From the IMG/VR virus record IMGVR_UViG_2541047923_000008: a stretch of 26,612 nt of DNA. One strand, given 5' to 3'. The stretch is from a virus. Lineage: Duplodnaviria > Heunggongvirae > Uroviricota > Caudoviricetes. Numbering within the stretch: the stretch's first letter is position 1; every line of letters starts with the position of its first letter. A program made the position numbers and the translations under genes. This document shows positions 10,980-16,324 of this stretch, piece by piece. The notes under the pieces are model-generated. The model ran no database searches, was not told where the DNA came from, and saw only the letters and a program-made list of their open reading frames with translations.

Positions 10980-11274
10980 TTTGTCGCTCCATGCGTTTGC
11001 TCTTCACTTGCGGCTAAAAATATAACGTCAAATCACTCAGCATGAAAGAGTGAAAGTTTCAGCGCGTTTCCCTTACATAATCTGTCATTTGTATTCTCTT
11101 CAGGTATACCGGAAAGACTAGGTATTGTCACACAACCAATACCATCGACAATCGAGATTTATATCTATTCGGTAATGTTTAAATATAACAAAACCCCGTA
11201 AAAACGAGGTTTATGGGTAATTTGTATTGTTGAATAGCATCTGATGAGAAATTGATGCTAATACTATAAACATA

Positions 11275-11448
11275 CTAGATTAAATCAATCTTGATATCAT
11301 AGCTTTCAAGACCAGTCATTTTTTCCCGTGCAGTAAACTGGATACTGGTAACTTCTTTCCCGGTCTTTTTCTTAAGCTCAATGATTTTTTTTGTTATATA
11401 TTCAGAAATATCTGCTTCTGTTTTTGTTTTTAACTCTTCAATGTTCAT
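11275..11448 (-). CDS. GnsB-like small protein
   Basis: C-terminal 57 aa (MNIEELKTKTEADISEYITKKIIELKKKTGKEVTSIQFTAREKMTGLESYDIKIDLI) resembles E. coli GnsA/GnsB as I recall them; the ORF-track N-terminal extension is probably not translated. Confidence 0.6.
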   Translation of the reverse strand: MNIEELKTKTEADISEYITKKIIELKKKTGKEVTSIQFTAREKMTGLESYDIKIDLI

Positions 11449-11620
11449 CATTTCCTCTTTTAGTCTGTTATGACTGTCCTGGTACACAGTAGTGTCAATT
11501 ATATGGAGCAAACGTATAAAAGATAAGATGAAACATCGCAATAATCAACATACGACGGTCTAAATTTCACACAAACAGATAAAGATGATTATCATTTATT
11601 ATCAATGCATTAGAATCAAA

Positions 11621-11890
11621 TCAATTCAAGAGTCTCATTGCTGCTTCCAGAATTTCTTCTGAAGTTACATGTCGATCCGCTGCTACATAAATGACTTTAT
11701 GATCTCCGGTCAGAGATGGAAACCCTGCAGCCATTACAGTGAGGTGTGTTGTTTCGCCATTTGGATATTCACGCATGATGGTGTTAACTCCGGTCATCAC
11801 TGGCACTACCATTGCTGGTTCAGAGTTAAAAAAAACTATTATTTTTTTCATAATGTTACCGTAATATGTGAGTATCCATCGACTAGACAC
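11621..11890 (-). CDS. Hypothetical small prophage protein (start uncertain, possibly the internal Met at about 11851)
   Basis: 89-aa ORF, AT-rich, no recognisable family. Confidence 0.4.
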   Translation of the reverse strand: MSSRWILTYYGNIMKKIIVFFNSEPAMVVPVMTGVNTIMREYPNGETTHLTVMAAGFPSLTGDHKVIYVAADRHVTSEEILEAAMRLLN

Positions 11891-11892
11891 TA

Positions 11893-11916
11893 AGCAAAAA
11901 AGCTCCCGAAGGAGCC
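11893..11916 (-). terminator. Rho-independent terminator (GCTCC-TTCG-GGAGC followed by a T-tract on the minus strand)
   Basis: Perfect 5-bp GC stem with tetraloop, followed on the minus strand by TTTTTTGC; downstream of the csp gene. Confidence 0.55.
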
Positions 11917-12122
11917 TTCATTTTCACTTTCTTAAATCTAACGACAGATGGCTAACATTTAAGTATTGTGAAATATTATCAAATGTAATCATCATTGATT
12001 TACAAAAGATACATTTTGCCCCGAAAGGATTTCTGTCAGAAACATCAAAAGATGATGTTCTATACTGAGAACCATGGCAACACGGGCATCTAAAGTGAAT
12101 ATGGTTTGTAATATTTTCTACC

Positions 12123-12335
12123 TCAAAGTGCCACTACATGAACAGCTGCAGGGCCTTTAGGTCCGTTCTCAATACCAAATTCGACTTCCTGATTCTCAGT
12201 TAACGTTTTGAAATCGTTGCTCTGAATAGCTGAGAAATGCACAAACACATCTTTGCTACCATCTTTCGGCGTGATGAAACCAAAACCTTTTTCAGGGTTA
12301 AACCATTTCACTAAACCAGTCATTTTGTTAGACAT
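12123..12335 (-). CDS. Cold-shock protein, CspA family (CspI/CspB-like)
   Basis: [38 protein letters not shown]... contains the RNP1 motif KGFGFI and RNP2-like VFVHF of the cold-shock domain; about 360 nt of non-coding sequence upstream, consistent with the long csp 5' UTR. Confidence 0.85.
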
Positions 12336-12698
12336 CATTATTACCTTTTGAAGAAGTTAGCCCTTGGGCAGAATGGTCCGAAAAAAAATATCAGAGAGAA
12401 AAACCAACAAGAAAATCTCAAGAGGTACAAATAATAAAATTATAACAATGACTGCTTCAGATAATTTTGTAACAAACCAGAACACCATTAACGCATGATT
12501 AACCAACCATAGCAAGGATTACTTTTGTAAAGAAAAACACACGAATGAAACAATAGCTTTATTTATTAATAAAACGTGTCATTCTGTCTAATGACCTTTT
12601 ATCTTACCCTTAAGATTTCAAGGATTTTGACTCATGGAAGAGTCCTTTTTATTTAAATTTCACATTCAGCGCTAAAAATAATCCGATTTAATATTAAT

Positions 12699-13726
<1,028 letters not shown>

Positions 13727-13839
13727 GGATATTTATCAGGATTTATCGGCTTCAAATCCCCGGATATGTTAAATCTTACCTCACCAGTGATGGGCACTGG
13801 CGGGAGGAGGATGTCAATCTGATAAACACAGAGGTGACT

Positions 13840-14100
13840 ATGGATTACACAAATCTACCAAAACAAACTTTTGCTGATTTAATCGCACTCAGGCAAGCAG
13901 TCGTAGCTCTAATCAACTTGTTGCCGGAGAAGGAAAAGGAATTAGTTAAAGCGCTTCTTAACAGAACTGCCGCCGATTTTTCATCATATCCACTGACAGA
14001 TGACCTTGCGGACCTTCCTGAATTAATTGCAGCGTCCGCCATTAAGCTTACTGAAGAGATTTACCCTCCTCAAAAATCTTCACAAAATTCCTGCGAGTAA
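13840..14100 (+). CDS. Orphan 86-aa protein of unknown function, inside the lysis cassette on the opposite strand
   Basis: ORF 13834..14100; ATG at 13840 preceded by AGAGG (5-nt spacer); followed directly by a strong intrinsic terminator; no recognisable motifs, acidic and helical-looking. Confidence 0.5.
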   Translation: MDYTNLPKQTFADLIALRQAVVALINLLPEKEKELVKALLNRTAADFSSYPLTDDLADLPELIAASAIKLTEEIYPPQKSSQNSCE

Positions 14101-14118
14101 CTTCAATGCAATAATCGT

Positions 14119-14154
14119 AAAACGCCGCAAACTGCTCATCGCGGCGTTTTTTTT
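14119..14154 (+). terminator. Rho-independent terminator (CGCCGC stem, 12-nt loop, T8 tract)
   Basis: AAAACGCCGC-loop-GCGGCGTTTTTTTT immediately after the stop of the 13840..14100 gene. Confidence 0.6.
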
Positions 14155-14348
14155 CATCTTCAGAAGGGATCAGCACCGACAATTTTTTATTCAGATCAGC
14201 GACGCTGCCCTCCAGTTTTTCAATGGGCGATTCAATATCATCTTTTTCTGACCGCAATGCCGTCGGTGGCGTCTTCAGAGAACCAGTAGATGATATGACC
14301 TTTATATACTCACTATAGCATTGGTGGGATATTCCAGAGGAGGTCATC

Positions 14349-15482
14349 ATGCATTCGGAAAATATTGCGGCTTACGTCGGGCTGGATGTGCATAAAGAAA
14401 CGTTGGCGGTTGCTATTGCTGCACCTGAACGGCTTGGCGAAGTTCGTTATTATGGTACGATTAACAACGAAGCCCAGGCTGTACGTCGATTATTTCAGAA
14501 ATTGCAGGGACTTTACGGAAACATTCTTTCCTGCTATGAGGCTGGCCCCTGTGGTTTTGGGCTATATCATCAACTCACAGCGATGAATATAAAATGCCAG
14601 GTTATTGCCCCTTCCCGCATACCAAAATCACCGACAGACAGAATCAAAAATGATCATCGGGACGCAATTTCTCTCGCCAGGTTACTGCGGGCTGGAGAAC
14701 TTACCCCTGTCTGGATCCCTGACCTGACTCATGAAGCTATGCGGGATCTAATCAGAGCCCGTGCAGCAGCTAAACGAGACAGCAGAGTTGCCCGACAGCG
14801 AATTCTGAGCATGCTATTGCGAACAGACAAACATTATGCAGGAAAGCACTGGACAGGAAAACATCGAACCTGGTTAGCTAATCAATCATTTAGTCAGCCA
14901 TCTCAACAGATTGCTTTTCAACACTATTGTCAAAGTCTGGAGCAGATTGAAGATCGCATACTTCAACTCGACCAGGAAATATCTCGCCTGTTACCTGAGT
15001 GGTCTCTGTGCAATCTGGTCTGCCAGTTGCAGGCTCTTAAAGGTGTTGGTCAGCTAATTGCAATAACTCTGGTTGCTGAACTGGGTGATTTTTCGCGATT
15101 TTCCAATCCCAAACAGCTCATGGCTTTTCTGGGACTGGTGCCAGGTGAATATTCCAGTGGAAACAGTATTCGTCCCAGAGGAATAACAAAAGTTGGAAAC
15201 AGCGAACTGAGACGTCTGCTTTACGAAGCCGCCTGGTCTTATCGTACACCTGCAAAAGTTGGGGCATGGCTTATATATTACCGACCGGACTCTGTAACAC
15301 AATATTCCAAAGATATTGCATGGAAAGCTCAACAACGATTGTGTTCTCGTTACCGAAGTCTGACAGCAAAAGGGAAAAAATCACAAGTAGCCATTACGGC
15401 GGTGGCTCGTGAGTTGACTGGATTTATGTGGGATATTGCACTTGCTGCCCAATCATCATTCAGTCAGCAGAAGCAAAATTAA
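14349..15482 (+). CDS. IS110-family (DEDD) transposase/recombinase
   Basis: 377-aa ORF; N-terminal VGLDVHKETLAVAI motif typical of the IS110-family DEDD domain and C-terminal helix-hairpin-helix-like region (LKGVGQLIAITLVAELGDFSRF); strong GAGGAGG Shine-Dalgarno. Confidence 0.85.
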   Translation: MHSENIAAYVGLDVHKETLAVAIAAPERLGEVRYYGTINNEAQAVRRLFQKLQGLYGNILSCYEAGPCGFGLYHQLTAMNIKCQVIAPSRIPKSPTDRIKNDHRDAISLARLLRAGELTPVWIPDLTHEAMRDLIRARAAAKRDSRVARQRILSMLLRTDKHYAGKHWTGKHRTWLANQSFSQPSQQIAFQHYCQSLEQIEDRILQLDQEISRLLPEWSLCNLVCQLQALKGVGQLIAITLVAELGDFSRFSNPKQLMAFLGLVPGEYSSGNSIRPRGITKVGNSELRRLLYEAAWSYRTPAKVGAWLIYYRPDSVTQYSKDIAWKAQQRLCSRYRSLTAKGKKSQVAITAVARELTGFMWDIALAAQSSFSQQKQN

Positions 15483-15484
15483 AC

Positions 15485-15655
15485 CCTGAAGCAGTCAGAC
15501 ACGGAATGAGTGATCCTCGTAAAAGAATTCAGGGAAGCCAGAATGCGCTAATACCTGCACGTAGAAAGAGGCCAGCTCACTGCGTAAATCGTCATGGGGC
15601 TAAAATCCCCGAATAAGAGTTTGTAAAATCCAAGATACAGTCTGACTGTTTCAGG
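15485..15655 (+). ncRNA. Candidate structured non-coding RNA closed by a 16-bp inverted repeat immediately 3' of the transposase; possible IS1111-type guide (bridge/seek) RNA
   Basis: CCTGAAGCAGTCAGAC at 15485-15500 pairs with GTCTGACTGTTTCAGG at 15640-15655 (15 Watson-Crick pairs plus one G-U) enclosing about 139 nt. Confidence 0.35.
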
Positions 15656-15710
15656 TTCTTTAATCCGCGATATAACGAAGCTCCCGGAGCTGCGTAAGGT
15701 CTTTTTGGGC

Positions 15711-16046
15711 TTAATATTTGACAAAGGTCATAAGAATTCTTCCTGGTAGCTTTCCTTTGTAGGTTATCCACACATTCTGCGCCTCTAAAATTACGGGGCG
15801 CTTTTCCGGCGACTGCTCATCCCCTTCACATAACCCGGCAGCAACATCCAGGAAGACCTGTCTGATGCTCCTTCTGGCTGCTGCCTCATAAAACTCCAGC
15901 GCGGCACCTTCAACACGGTCCAGCGAGATGTCCAGGTCAAAAATTTCGCCGTCAAAGCGTTTTTTGTCCCGTAACGCTAAAGTTACCGTAACTTTATTCT
16001 CAAAATTGCGGATCCCTTTCACAATCAGTTCATAGTTTTGAGTCAT
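15711..16046 (-). CDS. YdfR-like small protein between holin and endolysin; the C-terminus may be altered by the adjacent insertion
   Basis: 111-aa ORF starting 4 nt after the holin stop (MTQNYELIVKGIRNFENKVTVTLALRDKKRFDGEIFDLD...); resembles, from memory, the E. coli Qin-prophage YdfR encoded between essQ and rrrQ. Confidence 0.5.
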   Translation of the reverse strand: MTQNYELIVKGIRNFENKVTVTLALRDKKRFDGEIFDLDISLDRVEGAALEFYEAAARRSIRQVFLDVAAGLCEGDEQSPEKRPVILEAQNVWITYKGKLPGRILMTFVKY

Positions 16047-16050
16047 TGAA

Positions 16051-16266
16051 TTACTCTCCCCGTGCAGCCTTACGCTTGTCTTCTCTGATTTTGAAGTACA
16101 GATTTGTCAGATAAGTCAGGAAGCCCAGAACCAGACTCCCCAGTACACCAATCGCAGCCCACTGTGACGGACTGACCTGATCAAGCCACTGTAAAAACCA
16201 GTAGCCAGCACTGCCTGCGGAGGTGCCGTAGGCAATGCCCGTTGAAATTTTGTCCATGGATTTCAT
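16051..16266 (-). CDS. Class II pinholin, phage 21 S-type, with dual-start motif MKSMDK
   Basis: 71-aa [74 protein letters not shown] matches my memory of S21; two transmembrane segments; GGAGGTG Shine-Dalgarno. Confidence 0.9.
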
Positions 16267-16324
16267 AGCCTCACCTCCGCAAATAACGGATGGCGTAGTT
16301 TTACACTGAGAAATGAAAGGGATT

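What the first reader, a model, noticed from the sequence alone, without database searches (positions are those of the whole stretch)
13840..14154. Orphan small gene with its own RBS and strong terminator inside the lysis cassette
An 86-aa ORF on the plus strand, antisense to the late operon, has a good ribosome-binding site and a strong intrinsic terminator. It lies between the endolysin and the IS-family recombinase, so it is either cargo that arrived with the insert or an independent moron. The product is acidic with no recognisable motif.
Basis: seen in the sequence. Interest (0 to 1): 0.45.

Follow-up and report, generated by a model that had tools for sequence, protein, structure and literature searches.

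The report
Swappable small gene in lysis cassette
An 86-codon gene with its own ribosome-binding site and terminator sits backwards inside a prophage's cell-lysis operon; it looks like a real accessory gene of unknown function, one of at least seven unrelated small genes that related prophages carry at this same spot, and it did not arrive with the neighbouring insertion sequence.

Summary
ATG 13840 to TAA 14100 encodes 86 aa, with a GAGG ribosome-binding site 7 nt upstream. A 10-bp hairpin followed by U8 lies at 14119-14154.

The "IS cargo" reading is wrong. IS-free relatives (CFT073, phage 2H10) carry the identical ORF, and other ISEc45 copies share only 14279-15742.

The "independent moron" reading is supported. 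About 430 bp (13725-14157) is conserved as a unit in E. coli and Salmonella lambdoid prophages, at two different late-operon positions. The unit comprises a promoter-like block, leader, RBS, ORF and hairpin.

Three subfamilies (41-57% aa identity) keep the start, length and RBS. Between-family dN/dS is 0.3-0.4. Codon-position conservation runs 2>1>3. The hairpin keeps one compensatory pair.

The hairpin and the last 53 nt of the ORF lie inside the 3' end of the convergent DUF1327/YdfR-family late gene, which ISEc45 has split here.

The same slot next to the endolysin gene holds at least six other unrelated small ORFan families or is empty. All 60 occupied loci keep TTTATC-17nt-TATGTT/TATTGT.

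The product is an acidic, predicted three-helix protein with no informative homologue (PHROG 2572, unknown function). Expression and function remain untested.

The parts
13729..13747 (+). Conserved upstream block ATATTTATCAGGATTTATC (two ATTTATC copies). Its last 6 nt, TTTATC (13742-13747), are the -35-like hexamer. The block abuts the endolysin start codon (13724-13726, minus strand).
   Evidence: Invariant across all three ORF86 subfamilies, including the Salmonella loci that are not next to R. Unique in the window, with 0.01 matches expected by chance. Found in more than 120 IMG/VR lambdoid contigs.
13765..13770 (+). -10-like hexamer TATGTT, 17 nt after TTTATC. Predicted TSS about 13777 (inferred).
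   Evidence: The T-A-T-x-x-T positions are invariant across subfamilies. All 60 cargo-bearing loci have TATGTT (59) or TATTGT (1) behind at least 9 spacer variants, while 24 of 49 cargo-less loci lack it. The consensus promoter scan did not call it, because the -35 matches only 3/6.
13784..13800 (+). Small leader hairpin CCAGTG-atggg-CACTGG in the predicted 5' UTR.
   Evidence: Read from the sequence. The same hairpin (GCCAGTGGTGGGCACTGGC) precedes several unrelated cargo ORFs in the same slot. Its function is unknown.
13829..13832 (+). Shine-Dalgarno-like GAGG, 7 nt before the ATG.
   Evidence: Diverged homologues have AAGGA at the equivalent place.
13840..14100 (+). ORF86: 86 aa, 9.5 kDa, pI 4.57, with three predicted helices (residues 8-26, 30-48, 56-74). 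PHROG 2572; identical to RefSeq WP_001306174.1 in CFT073.
14119..14154 (+). Intrinsic-terminator-like hairpin (10-bp stem, 12-nt loop) plus U8. On the minus strand it encodes KKRRDEQFAAF of the DUF1327-family protein.
   Evidence: Conserved in all subfamilies, with one compensatory G-C to A-U pair achieved through two nonsynonymous changes (RR..AA to RHH..VA). The U tract is weaker in other subfamilies.
14048..14288 (-). 3' portion (C-terminal extension) of the DUF1327/YdfR-family late gene, cut off from its 5' part by the IS. Its last 53 nt overlap the ORF86 3' end (14048-14100).
   Evidence: Only the last ~35 aa, encoded by the conserved cassette DNA, are homologous between subfamilies.
14289..15734 (+). 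ISEc45 (IS110 family), 1446 bp. Not part of the ORF86 unit.
15735..16046 (-). 5' portion of the interrupted DUF1327/YdfR-family gene. The ORF runs on into the IS end, down to 15711.
   Evidence: Pfam DUF1327, E = 2.8e-42. Junction.
13193..13726 (-). Endolysin R (rrrQ-like lysozyme with an N-terminal hydrophobic SAR-like segment), the gene flanking the slot on the left.
   Evidence: Variable sites fall 118:32:28 at codon positions 3:1:2.

Best explanation
ORF86 is a genuine, self-contained accessory transcription unit (a 'moron') of a lambdoid prophage. It is inserted backwards in the lysis cassette between the YdfR-family (DUF1327) gene and the endolysin gene.

Shown by sequence and comparison:
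- About 430 bp (13725-14157) behaves as one conserved unit: a promoter-like block (TTTATC-17 nt-TATGTT), a ~60-nt leader, an RBS, the 86-codon ORF and a hairpin with a U tract.
- The unit is present, absent or replaced by other cargo in otherwise syntenic prophages.
- It evolves as a protein-coding sequence.
- It is independent of the neighbouring ISEc45.

Inferred:
- It is transcribed by host sigma-70 RNA polymerase from about 13777 and terminated at 14154. It can therefore be made in the lysogen while the late operon is silent.
- Q-antiterminated late transcription reads through the hairpin from the other side. The upstream late gene is translated across the hairpin into the ORF's 3' end.

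The product is a 9.5-kDa acidic cytoplasmic three-helix protein with no catalytic motif. It most likely acts by binding another protein.

Three observations are typical of phage-host or phage-phage conflict genes (superinfection exclusion or anti-defence): the same slot carries at least seven unrelated small ORFan families, the gene evolves fast, and it is confined to E. coli, E. albertii and Salmonella prophages. That functional assignment is a guess.
For: Not IS cargo.

Real family with diverged members:
- Members are 86-93 aa and share 41-57% identity, with the same start and RBS.
- Between-family NG86 dN/dS is 0.29-0.43 in the ORF frame against 0.36-0.68 in the wobble-sharing antisense frame. 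Replacements are more conservative in the sense frame.
- Invariant columns by codon position are 35/86 (pos 1), 51/86 (pos 2) and 26/86 (pos 3).
- In-frame indel variants exist.

Structure and annotation: AF2 predicts a three-helix bundle at pLDDT 70. PGAP annotates the ORF, and PHROG 2572 matches it full length at E = 1e-53.

Conserved flanking signals:
- The hairpin is conserved, with a compensatory pair.
- The upstream block is invariant even in Salmonella loci, where the unit lies after Rz and before the small terminase gene.
- DNA similarity between subfamilies stops just after the hairpin.

Slot polymorphism:
- K-12 Qin lacks the unit.
- A close relative of this prophage (E. coli F95) carries a 90-aa ORF there instead.
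- Of 109 block-containing loci with enough downstream sequence, 60 carry one of 7 cargo families and 49 carry none.
- The cargo families show no mutual hhalign similarity.
Against: - There is no expression evidence of any kind. I found no paper or dataset on it.
- The promoter is weak by consensus (-35 3/6, -10 4/6) and the scan did not call it.
- The block also occurs in cargo-less loci, where it is simply the YdfR-R spacer. Its conservation in E. coli could therefore partly serve endolysin translation initiation.
- Within E. coli, dN/dS is high at 0.6-0.9 and exceeds 1 for two allele pairs. Variable sites fall 8:9:11 at codon positions 1:2:3, and truncated alleles exist. Constraint is therefore weak.
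- The U tract is poor in the Salmonella and L099 subfamilies.
- The family is tiny: it occurs in 1 of 185,579 species-representative genomes.
- Structure searches give nothing informative, so the 'conflict gene' function is inference from context only.
Confidence: 0.6

Rival explanations
1. The transcript, not the protein, is the functional product. A plus-strand RNA made from the conserved promoter block runs antisense to the ~320-nt untranslated stretch of late mRNA between the YdfR-family stop and the endolysin start, and to the 3' end of the YdfR-family gene. By duplex formation or transcriptional collision it would modulate expression of downstream late genes and hence lysis timing. The ORF would be incidental or secondary.
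For: The strongest nucleotide-level conservation is in non-ORF elements: the upstream block, the -10-like hexamer and the hairpin. The arrangement is convergent and overlapping in every subfamily. Unrelated ORFs occupy the same slot behind the same promoter and leader, so the shared feature is antisense transcription. Protein-level constraint within E. coli is weak.
Against: The ORF's start, RBS and length, and the codon-position pattern 2>1>3, are conserved over 41-57% aa identity with dS above 1. An RNA-only function does not require that. In Salmonella the unit precedes a terminase gene rather than the endolysin gene, so no specific late target is conserved. No Rfam family matches.
Confidence: 0.13
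2. The ORF is a spurious open frame in a non-coding spacer of the late operon. Annotation pipelines call it, but it is never translated. What is conserved would be RNA or DNA signals such as the hairpin and the endolysin leader.
For: Phage 2H10 leaves it unannotated. Within-E. coli substitutions show no third-position excess. The family is narrow. There are no Pfam or NCBIfam hits. An antisense frame is also open in all subfamilies.
Against: A ~260-nt frame with the same start, RBS and stop region survives at dS 0.9-1.5 in three subfamilies, with dN/dS of 0.3-0.4. Codon position 2 is the most conserved. Indels are in frame. AF2 gives a coherent helical fold.
Confidence: 0.12
3. ORF86 and the C-terminal extension of the convergent YdfR-family protein form a functional pair, for example a late-expressed effector and its lysogen-expressed inhibitor. 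On this reading the 3' overlap is kept for that reason.
For: Every ORF86 homologue overlaps the 3' end of a minus-strand ORF by 53-59 nt. The last ~35 aa of that ORF are alignable (E.KRRDE..AA.Y...F.K...KS.Q) whether it is a standalone 73-aa gene or the tail of a DUF1327 protein. K-12 YdfR has been reported to bind the RNase E catalytic domain and possibly RNA (PMC13232886).
Against: The shared tail is exactly the part encoded by the cassette DNA itself (hairpin plus ORF86 3' end). Similarity stops at the cassette edge. Other cargo types give the YdfR-family gene quite different tails, and empty sites end it at GSLKT*. The tail therefore looks like read-through into whatever is inserted. The R-R..A-A to R-H-H..V-A change preserves the hairpin, not the peptide.
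Confidence: 0.08
4. The real gene is the minus-strand 65-aa ORF (13845-14042), in the late-operon orientation. ORF86 would be its shadow.
For: It is co-oriented with the late operon and starts just after the YdfR-family stop. An equivalent frame is open in L096 and L099. It shares wobble positions with ORF86, so third-position tests cannot separate the two.
Against: It has no SD and no conserved start. Its length varies (65, 115 and 59 aa) and it uses TTG starts elsewhere. It has the higher dN/dS and more radical replacements (mean BLOSUM62 of about -0.6 to -1.4, against about 0 to -0.7 for the ORF86 frame, between subfamilies). In this frame codon position 1 would be more conserved than position 2. 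Its composition is rich in Ser, Ala and Cys.
Confidence: 0.03
5. ORF86 is passenger DNA of the IS110-family element.
For: Only adjacency and shared orientation.
Against: IS-free genomes carry the identical ORF. Other ISEc45 copies lack it. None of 5,426 complete E. coli genomes has this ORF-IS junction.
Confidence: 0.01

Closest known systems
Phage 'morons' as defined for lambdoid phages (Juhala/Hendrix), e.g. lambda bor, which lies next to the lysis genes on the opposite strand and is expressed from the prophage (from my own knowledge, not checked here)
   Same: A small extra ORF with its own promoter-like and terminator-like signals. It is inserted between genes of the late operon, in reverse orientation, and is present in some syntenic phages and absent in others. 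In the Salmonella prophages the unit lies after Rz and before the terminase genes, which from memory is also where bor lies in lambda.
   Different: The product is a soluble acidic helical protein, not a lipoprotein. The terminator and the ORF's 3' end are embedded in the coding sequence of the convergent late gene. The slot holds many alternative cargos behind one shared promoter and leader. Expression is untested.
PHROG 2572 / RefSeq WP_001306174.1 / UniProt A0A234XQB3 (hypothetical proteins)
   Same: Identical or near-identical sequences, with a full-length HMM match at E = 1.2e-53.
   Different: None. This is the same family, and no function is recorded for it.
Anti-CRISPR/anti-defence loci and prophage defence hotspots: variable small ORFs at a fixed position between conserved phage genes (from my own knowledge)
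   Same: A fixed genomic slot with conserved flanks and a shared upstream region. It holds a turnover of unrelated ~90-100-aa ORFan proteins that evolve fast and have a narrow host range. A PDB sequence profile search gives a sub-significant hit to AcrIIC4 at E = 0.54.
   Different: No significant similarity to any Acr or PADLOC model. No associated aca-like regulator was seen in the slot. No functional data. The AcrIIC4 hit is at chance level.
Pfam DUF1823 (the label used for this ORF in the phage PhiR5_1 record)
   Same: A weak local match to residues 12-50.
   Different: 13.2 bits, against a gathering threshold of 25, E = 0.11. It is not a member.

Membership tests
Moron (independent transcription unit inserted in a phage operon) | Present in some and absent from other otherwise syntenic phages | tested here: met
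   K-12 Qin has ydfR abutting rrrQ, with no unit. Empty sites and six other cargo families occupy the same slot. The closest relative of this prophage, F95, carries a different 90-aa ORF there.
Moron (independent transcription unit inserted in a phage operon) | Own transcription terminator downstream of the ORF | tested here: met
   A 10-bp GC-rich stem plus U8 lies 18 nt after the stop, with dG -14.2. The stem is conserved, with one compensatory pair, in three subfamilies. This is met at the sequence level only. Termination activity cannot be tested here, and the U tract is weaker in other subfamilies.
Moron (independent transcription unit inserted in a phage operon) | Own promoter upstream of the ORF | tested here: inconclusive
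   The consensus scan finds none. A conserved TTTATC-17-TATGTT is invariant across subfamilies and is present in 60/60 cargo-bearing loci against 25/49 cargo-less loci. However, it doubles as the YdfR-R spacer in empty sites.
Moron (independent transcription unit inserted in a phage operon) | Expressed from the repressed prophage | not testable with these tools
   No transcript or protein data are available. Literature searches were empty.
PHROG 2572 | Full-length significant match to the family HMM | tested here: met
   E = 1.2e-53, residues 1-86 against profile positions 1-86 of 86.
Pfam DUF1823 | Score at or above the gathering threshold (25 bits) | tested here: not met
   13.2 bits, E = 0.11.
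Passenger gene of ISEc45 (IS110 family) | Lies inside the element's ends and travels with other copies | tested here: not met
   The IS ends are at 14289 and 15734, and the ORF ends at 14100. Other copies match only 14279-15742. The ORF is present without the IS in 294 complete genomes.
Anti-CRISPR AcrIIC4 | Significant sequence or fold similarity | tested here: not met
Known anti-phage defence proteins (PADLOC-DB v2) | Match to a defence-system HMM | tested here: not met
   No hit for ORF86. Only a weak partial PDC-S51 hit for an unrelated cargo of the same slot.

The most novel reading that the evidence does not exclude
The spacer between the YdfR-family gene and the endolysin gene may be an undescribed hypervariable accessory-gene slot in the lysis cassette of E. 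coli lambdoid prophages that carry the rrrQ-type endolysin and class II holin. On this reading, a resident antisense promoter plus a short hairpin leader drives interchangeable, mutually unrelated ~90-100-aa ORFan cassettes. There are at least 7 families, ORF86 among them, and each brings its own terminator, into which the YdfR-family reading frame then extends. If these cassettes are expressed, they would form a new reservoir of phage-host or phage-phage conflict proteins (exclusion or anti-defence). Alternatively they could modulate lysis or the YdfR/RNase E interaction.
Probability: 0.3. Interest if true: 0.6.

Novelty: new member of a known kind. Interest (0 to 1): 0.38.

Why it matters
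Taken alone, this is one more hypothetical prophage gene, already present in RefSeq and PHROGs. The surrounding picture has more value.

- It gives a clean test case for small-gene reality, in which ORF, RBS, promoter-like block and terminator co-vary as a unit across E. coli and Salmonella phages.
- A terminator hairpin is maintained inside another gene's coding sequence by compensatory nonsynonymous changes.
- One fixed slot in a lysis cassette exchanges at least seven unrelated small ORFans. Slots like this are where anti-defence and exclusion genes have repeatedly been found, so it offers a short, testable candidate list.
- It corrects the tempting inference that a gene next to an IS came with the IS.

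Tried and rejected
- **Third-codon-position excess within E. coli alleles.** Uninformative. There are only 28 variable sites (8:9:11 at positions 1:2:3), and the antisense ORF shares the wobble positions. I replaced it with between-subfamily dN/dS, replacement quality and per-position invariance.
- **A 975-aa TPR/CHAT-like hit, P0019.** Dismissed as repeat-driven noise.
- **Search for more diverged relatives.** The genome-contig scan found only the E. coli representative. The metagenome-contig scan found only E. coli-type copies.
- **Rfam scan of 13600-14400.** Only sub-threshold chance hits, including GcvB at 18 bits against a gathering score of 42.
- **A conserved two-gene 'toxin-antitoxin-like' pair with the convergent ORF.** Downgraded once the shared tail proved to be only the part encoded by cassette DNA.
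- **The upstream block as a Fur, PhoP, IHF or DnaA site.** Compared by eye only. None fitted in spacing, and I make no claim.
- **A leader peptide starting at ATG 13725.** Rejected, because the stop is lost in the L099 subfamily (read).
- **Common ancestry of the seven cargo families.** hhalign probabilities are all below 3%.
- **Literature.** Nothing on this ORF or slot. The only relevant paper concerns YdfR and RNase E.

Full report
**1. What is at the coordinates**

The plus strand carries ATG 13840 to TAA 14098-14100, 86 codons, preceded by GAGG at 13829-13832. The GTG at 13834 that the ORF listing reports (88 aa) lies 1 nt after the SD.

Eighteen nt after the stop is a hairpin, AAAACGCCGC-12 nt-GCGGCGUUUU, followed by UUUU. 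That makes 8 U in a row, ending at 14154, with dG -14.2 kcal/mol. In a 76-nt context the fold z-score is -2.4 on the plus strand and -3.3 on the minus strand. The consensus terminator scan missed it only because the loop is longer than 8 nt.

The product is acidic (pI 4.57, net charge -5.5).

**2. Surroundings**

The minus strand holds the late genes of a lambdoid prophage. Searches show tail, head, terminase, Q and replication genes around it. The local order is:

- Class II holin S, 16051-16266.
- A DUF1327/YdfR-family gene. Its 5' part is 15735-16046 (Pfam E = 3e-42).
- An IS.
- The 3' part of the same gene, 14288 down to the stop at 14048.
- Endolysin R, 13193-13726.
- Rz, 12699-13196.

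The IS is ISEc45 (IS110 family; NCBIfam NF033542). It occupies 14289-15734, with 1 bp of ambiguity.

So the hairpin and the last 53 nt of ORF86 are not intergenic. On the minus strand they encode the C-terminal ...EDEKKRRDEQFAAFYDYCIEVTRRNFVKIFEEGKSLQ of the YdfR-family protein. That protein is intact in phage 2H10 (183 aa) and PhiR5_1 (211 aa).

**3. Not IS cargo**

- CFT073, APEC O1, S88 and many other genomes are 100% identical to 13700-14288 and continue directly with the sequence found at 15735 onward.
- In CFT073 the ORF is annotated as WP_001306174.1, 'hypothetical protein'.
- Other ISEc45 copies sit in IS66-family tnpC genes and match only 14279-15742. That is the IS plus about 10 nt of look-alike target on each side.
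- No complete E. coli genome in the collection has the ORF-IS junction.
- The ORF cassette occurs in 294 of 5,426 complete genomes, always on the chromosome.

**4. Is it a gene?**

Close relatives (85-100% identity) are confined to E. coli and E. albertii. An exhaustive HMMER search and a profile search added two diverged subfamilies of the same size:

- 93 aa in Salmonella prophages (P0020, P0025, P0026).
- 89 or 93 aa in gut-metagenome contigs (P0021, P0023).

These share 41-57% identity with the window protein. All begin M-(D/S)-..-L-(P/S)-K-(Q/K)-.-F-A-D behind an SD (GAGG or AAGGA).

Evidence that the frame codes for protein:

- Between subfamilies dS is 0.9-1.5. dN/dS is 0.29-0.43 in the ORF frame. 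In the antisense frame that shares its wobble positions it is 0.36-0.68.
- Replacements score higher on BLOSUM62 in the ORF frame for every between-subfamily pair, and for all but one pair overall.
- Across the three subfamilies, invariant columns number 35, 51 and 26 of 86 at codon positions 1, 2 and 3. That is the coding order for the plus frame and not for the antisense frame.
- Allelic indels are in frame.
- AlphaFold2, using the 10-sequence alignment, gives three helices (8-26, 30-48, 56-74) at mean pLDDT 70.

Against this, constraint within E. coli is weak. dN/dS is 0.6-0.9 for most allele pairs and exceeds 1 for two pairs. Variable sites fall 8:9:11 at positions 1:2:3. Truncated alleles exist. 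I conclude it is a real but fast-evolving protein gene.

**5. The unit that is conserved**

DNA alignment of the three subfamilies shows similarity running from an upstream block to just past the hairpin, and no further.

*Upstream.* The block ATATTTATCAGGnTTTATC (13729-13747) is invariant, and so are the T-A-T-x-x-T positions 17 nt later (13765-13770). This reads as a -35-like TTTATC and a -10-like TATGTT (TATTGT in Salmonella), behind spacers that differ at many positions. The promoter scan does not call it, because the -35 matches only 3/6.

*Downstream.* The stem AACGCCGC/GCGGCGTT is kept. In the L099 subfamily it becomes AACGCCACC/GGTGGCGTT. This is a G-C to A-T compensatory change produced by two nonsynonymous substitutions in the overlapping gene (KRR..AA to RHH..VA). 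Selection is therefore acting on the hairpin itself. The U tract is excellent here (U8) but weaker elsewhere.

*Position.* In Salmonella the whole unit lies after Rz (DUF2514) and before the small-terminase gene, not next to an endolysin gene. Promoter-like block, ORF and hairpin thus travel together, which is the anatomy of a moron.

**6. The convergent 'partner'**

In every subfamily a minus-strand ORF reads through the hairpin and stops 53-59 nt inside the ORF86 homologue. It may be a standalone 73-aa gene coupled to Rz, or the tail of DUF1327 proteins of 116-243 aa, or a 144-aa protein.

Only the last ~35 aa are alignable (BLASTP 43% identity over 35 aa). That is exactly the part encoded by cassette DNA.

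Other cargo types give the YdfR-family gene other tails. At empty sites the gene ends ...GSLKT*. I therefore read the tail mainly as the upstream late gene running into whatever is inserted. I cannot exclude that translation across the hairpin, or the peptide itself, is useful.

**7. A variable slot**

The block occurs in more than 120 IMG/VR lambdoid contigs, always abutting the endolysin start. Of the 109 with enough downstream sequence, 60 carry a plus-strand ORF starting 103-128 nt after the block behind an SD. These fall into seven families:

| Family | Size | PHROG |
|---|---|---|
| A | 90 aa | phrog_2411 |
| B (= ORF86) | 86-93 aa | phrog_2572 |
| C | 104 aa | phrog_1853 |
| D | 210 aa | none |
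| E | 98 aa | phrog_25324 |
| F | 95 aa | phrog_10490 |
| G | 87-91 aa | phrog_18136 |

- All are of unknown function, with no Pfam, NCBIfam or solid PADLOC hit.
- They show no hhalign similarity to one another.
- Families A, B, E, F and G each have a terminator-like hairpin with a T run after the stop. In A, B, F and G that hairpin lies inside the convergent ORF. C and D have less clear structures.
- All 60 occupied loci keep TTTATC-17-TATGTT/TATTGT. Of the 49 cargo-less loci, 24 have lost the -10-like hexamer.
- Several cargos share the first ~25 nt of leader, including a small hairpin (13784-13800 here).
- Empty sites read ...GGATATGTTAAGTCTTCAGAGAACCAGTAATT. AGTCTTCAG-like repeats flank several occupied cassettes, and some empty sites keep a scar of the leader hairpin.
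- The best overall match to this window's prophage (E. coli F95) has family A, not ORF86, in the slot.
- K-12 Qin has neither block nor cargo.

**8. Function**

No search gave an informative relative:

- Pfam hits to ABATE and DUF1823 are sub-threshold, so the 'DUF1823' label in the PhiR5_1 record is not justified.
- NCBIfam and PADLOC found nothing.
- Foldseek against PDB and BFVD gave E > 1.
- The PDB sequence profile gave a chance-level hit to AcrIIC4, E = 0.54.

The protein has no long hydrophobic stretch, judged by eye. The most I can commit to is a small cytoplasmic protein-binding module. Its context (interchangeable ORFans in one slot, rapid evolution, narrow host range, own signals, reverse orientation in a late operon) resembles lysogen-expressed exclusion or anti-defence genes. 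That step is inference.

[quoted passage not shown] This makes a link between slot cargo and YdfR worth testing, but nothing here shows one.

**9. Effect of the IS**

ISEc45 lies 134 nt beyond the hairpin and leaves the ORF86 unit intact. It splits the YdfR-family gene at ...KLPGRI | TGSLKTPP.... It also places 1.4 kb of foreign DNA in the late operon upstream of R and Rz. A hybrid 100-aa ORF (14048-14350, minus strand) now starts inside the IS end.

**10. Verdict**

The variable slot and the hairpin embedded in coding sequence are the parts worth following up.

Noticed in passing
window 13725-13800 and 14270-14288; loci L135-L254: The spacer between the endolysin gene and the YdfR-family gene is a variable slot. 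The same promoter-like block and leader are followed, in different prophages, by one of at least 7 unrelated small ORFs (86-210 aa) or by nothing. AGTCTTCAG-like direct repeats flank several occupied cassettes, and some empty sites keep a scar of the leader hairpin.
   Followed up: partly
window 14289-15734 (flanks 14279-14288 and 15735-15742): ISEc45 (IS110 family, annotated by NCBIfam as an RNA-guided transposase) is inserted in the conserved ...GSLKT... codons of the YdfR-family gene. Other ISEc45 copies, in IS66 tnpC genes, share about 10 nt on the left and 8 nt on the right with this site, which suggests sequence-directed targeting. The transposase has only 60 nt of element upstream of it and 252 nt downstream. 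No complete E. coli genome in the collection has this insertion.
   Followed up: partly
window 11001-14288 versus 15735-16275: Left of the IS the window is 99.97% identical to CFT073. Right of it identity drops to 87.6%. The IS therefore sits at a mosaic junction, and the two halves of the YdfR-family gene may come from different prophage lineages, either through IS-mediated or flank recombination or through an older mosaic joint.
   Followed up: no
window 14119-14150, minus-strand codons KKRRDEQFAAF: An RNA hairpin inside a protein-coding region is kept across subfamilies by paired nonsynonymous changes (CGC-CGC..GCG-GCG to CGC-CAC-CAC..GTG-GCG). Nucleotide-level selection appears to override the peptide sequence.
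   Followed up: partly
window 14048-14350, minus strand: A hybrid 100-aa ORF starts at an ATG inside the left end of the IS, opposite the transposase start. It continues in frame into the orphaned 3' part of the YdfR-family gene.
   Followed up: no
window 13727-13750, minus strand (upstream of the R start at 13726): The endolysin gene has no Shine-Dalgarno sequence. Its start is preceded by A/U-rich GAUAAAUCCUGAUAAAUAUCC, the reverse of the conserved block. The block may therefore also serve endolysin translation initiation.
   Followed up: no
L002 (phage PhiR5_1) 3420-3600: The longer YdfR-family tail in PhiR5_1 contains a segment (..KKSTPTKNEVLAADEMKE..HLSCAS.LKEHLQ.P) that in family-G loci is the end of the gene and carries the G-type terminator hairpin. 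Successive cassette insertions seem to have built up the tail.
   Followed up: no
literature: PMC13232886: K-12 YdfR (DUF1327) was reported in 2026 to bind the N-terminal catalytic half of RNase E, by two-hybrid and co-purification, and to co-purify with RNA. This gives a first functional lead for the late gene interrupted here.
   Followed up: partly
slot cargo family F (e.g. L222), not in the window: A weak partial match to the PADLOC candidate defence protein PDC-S51 (E = 2.5e-5, profile positions 99-161 of 376).
   Followed up: no
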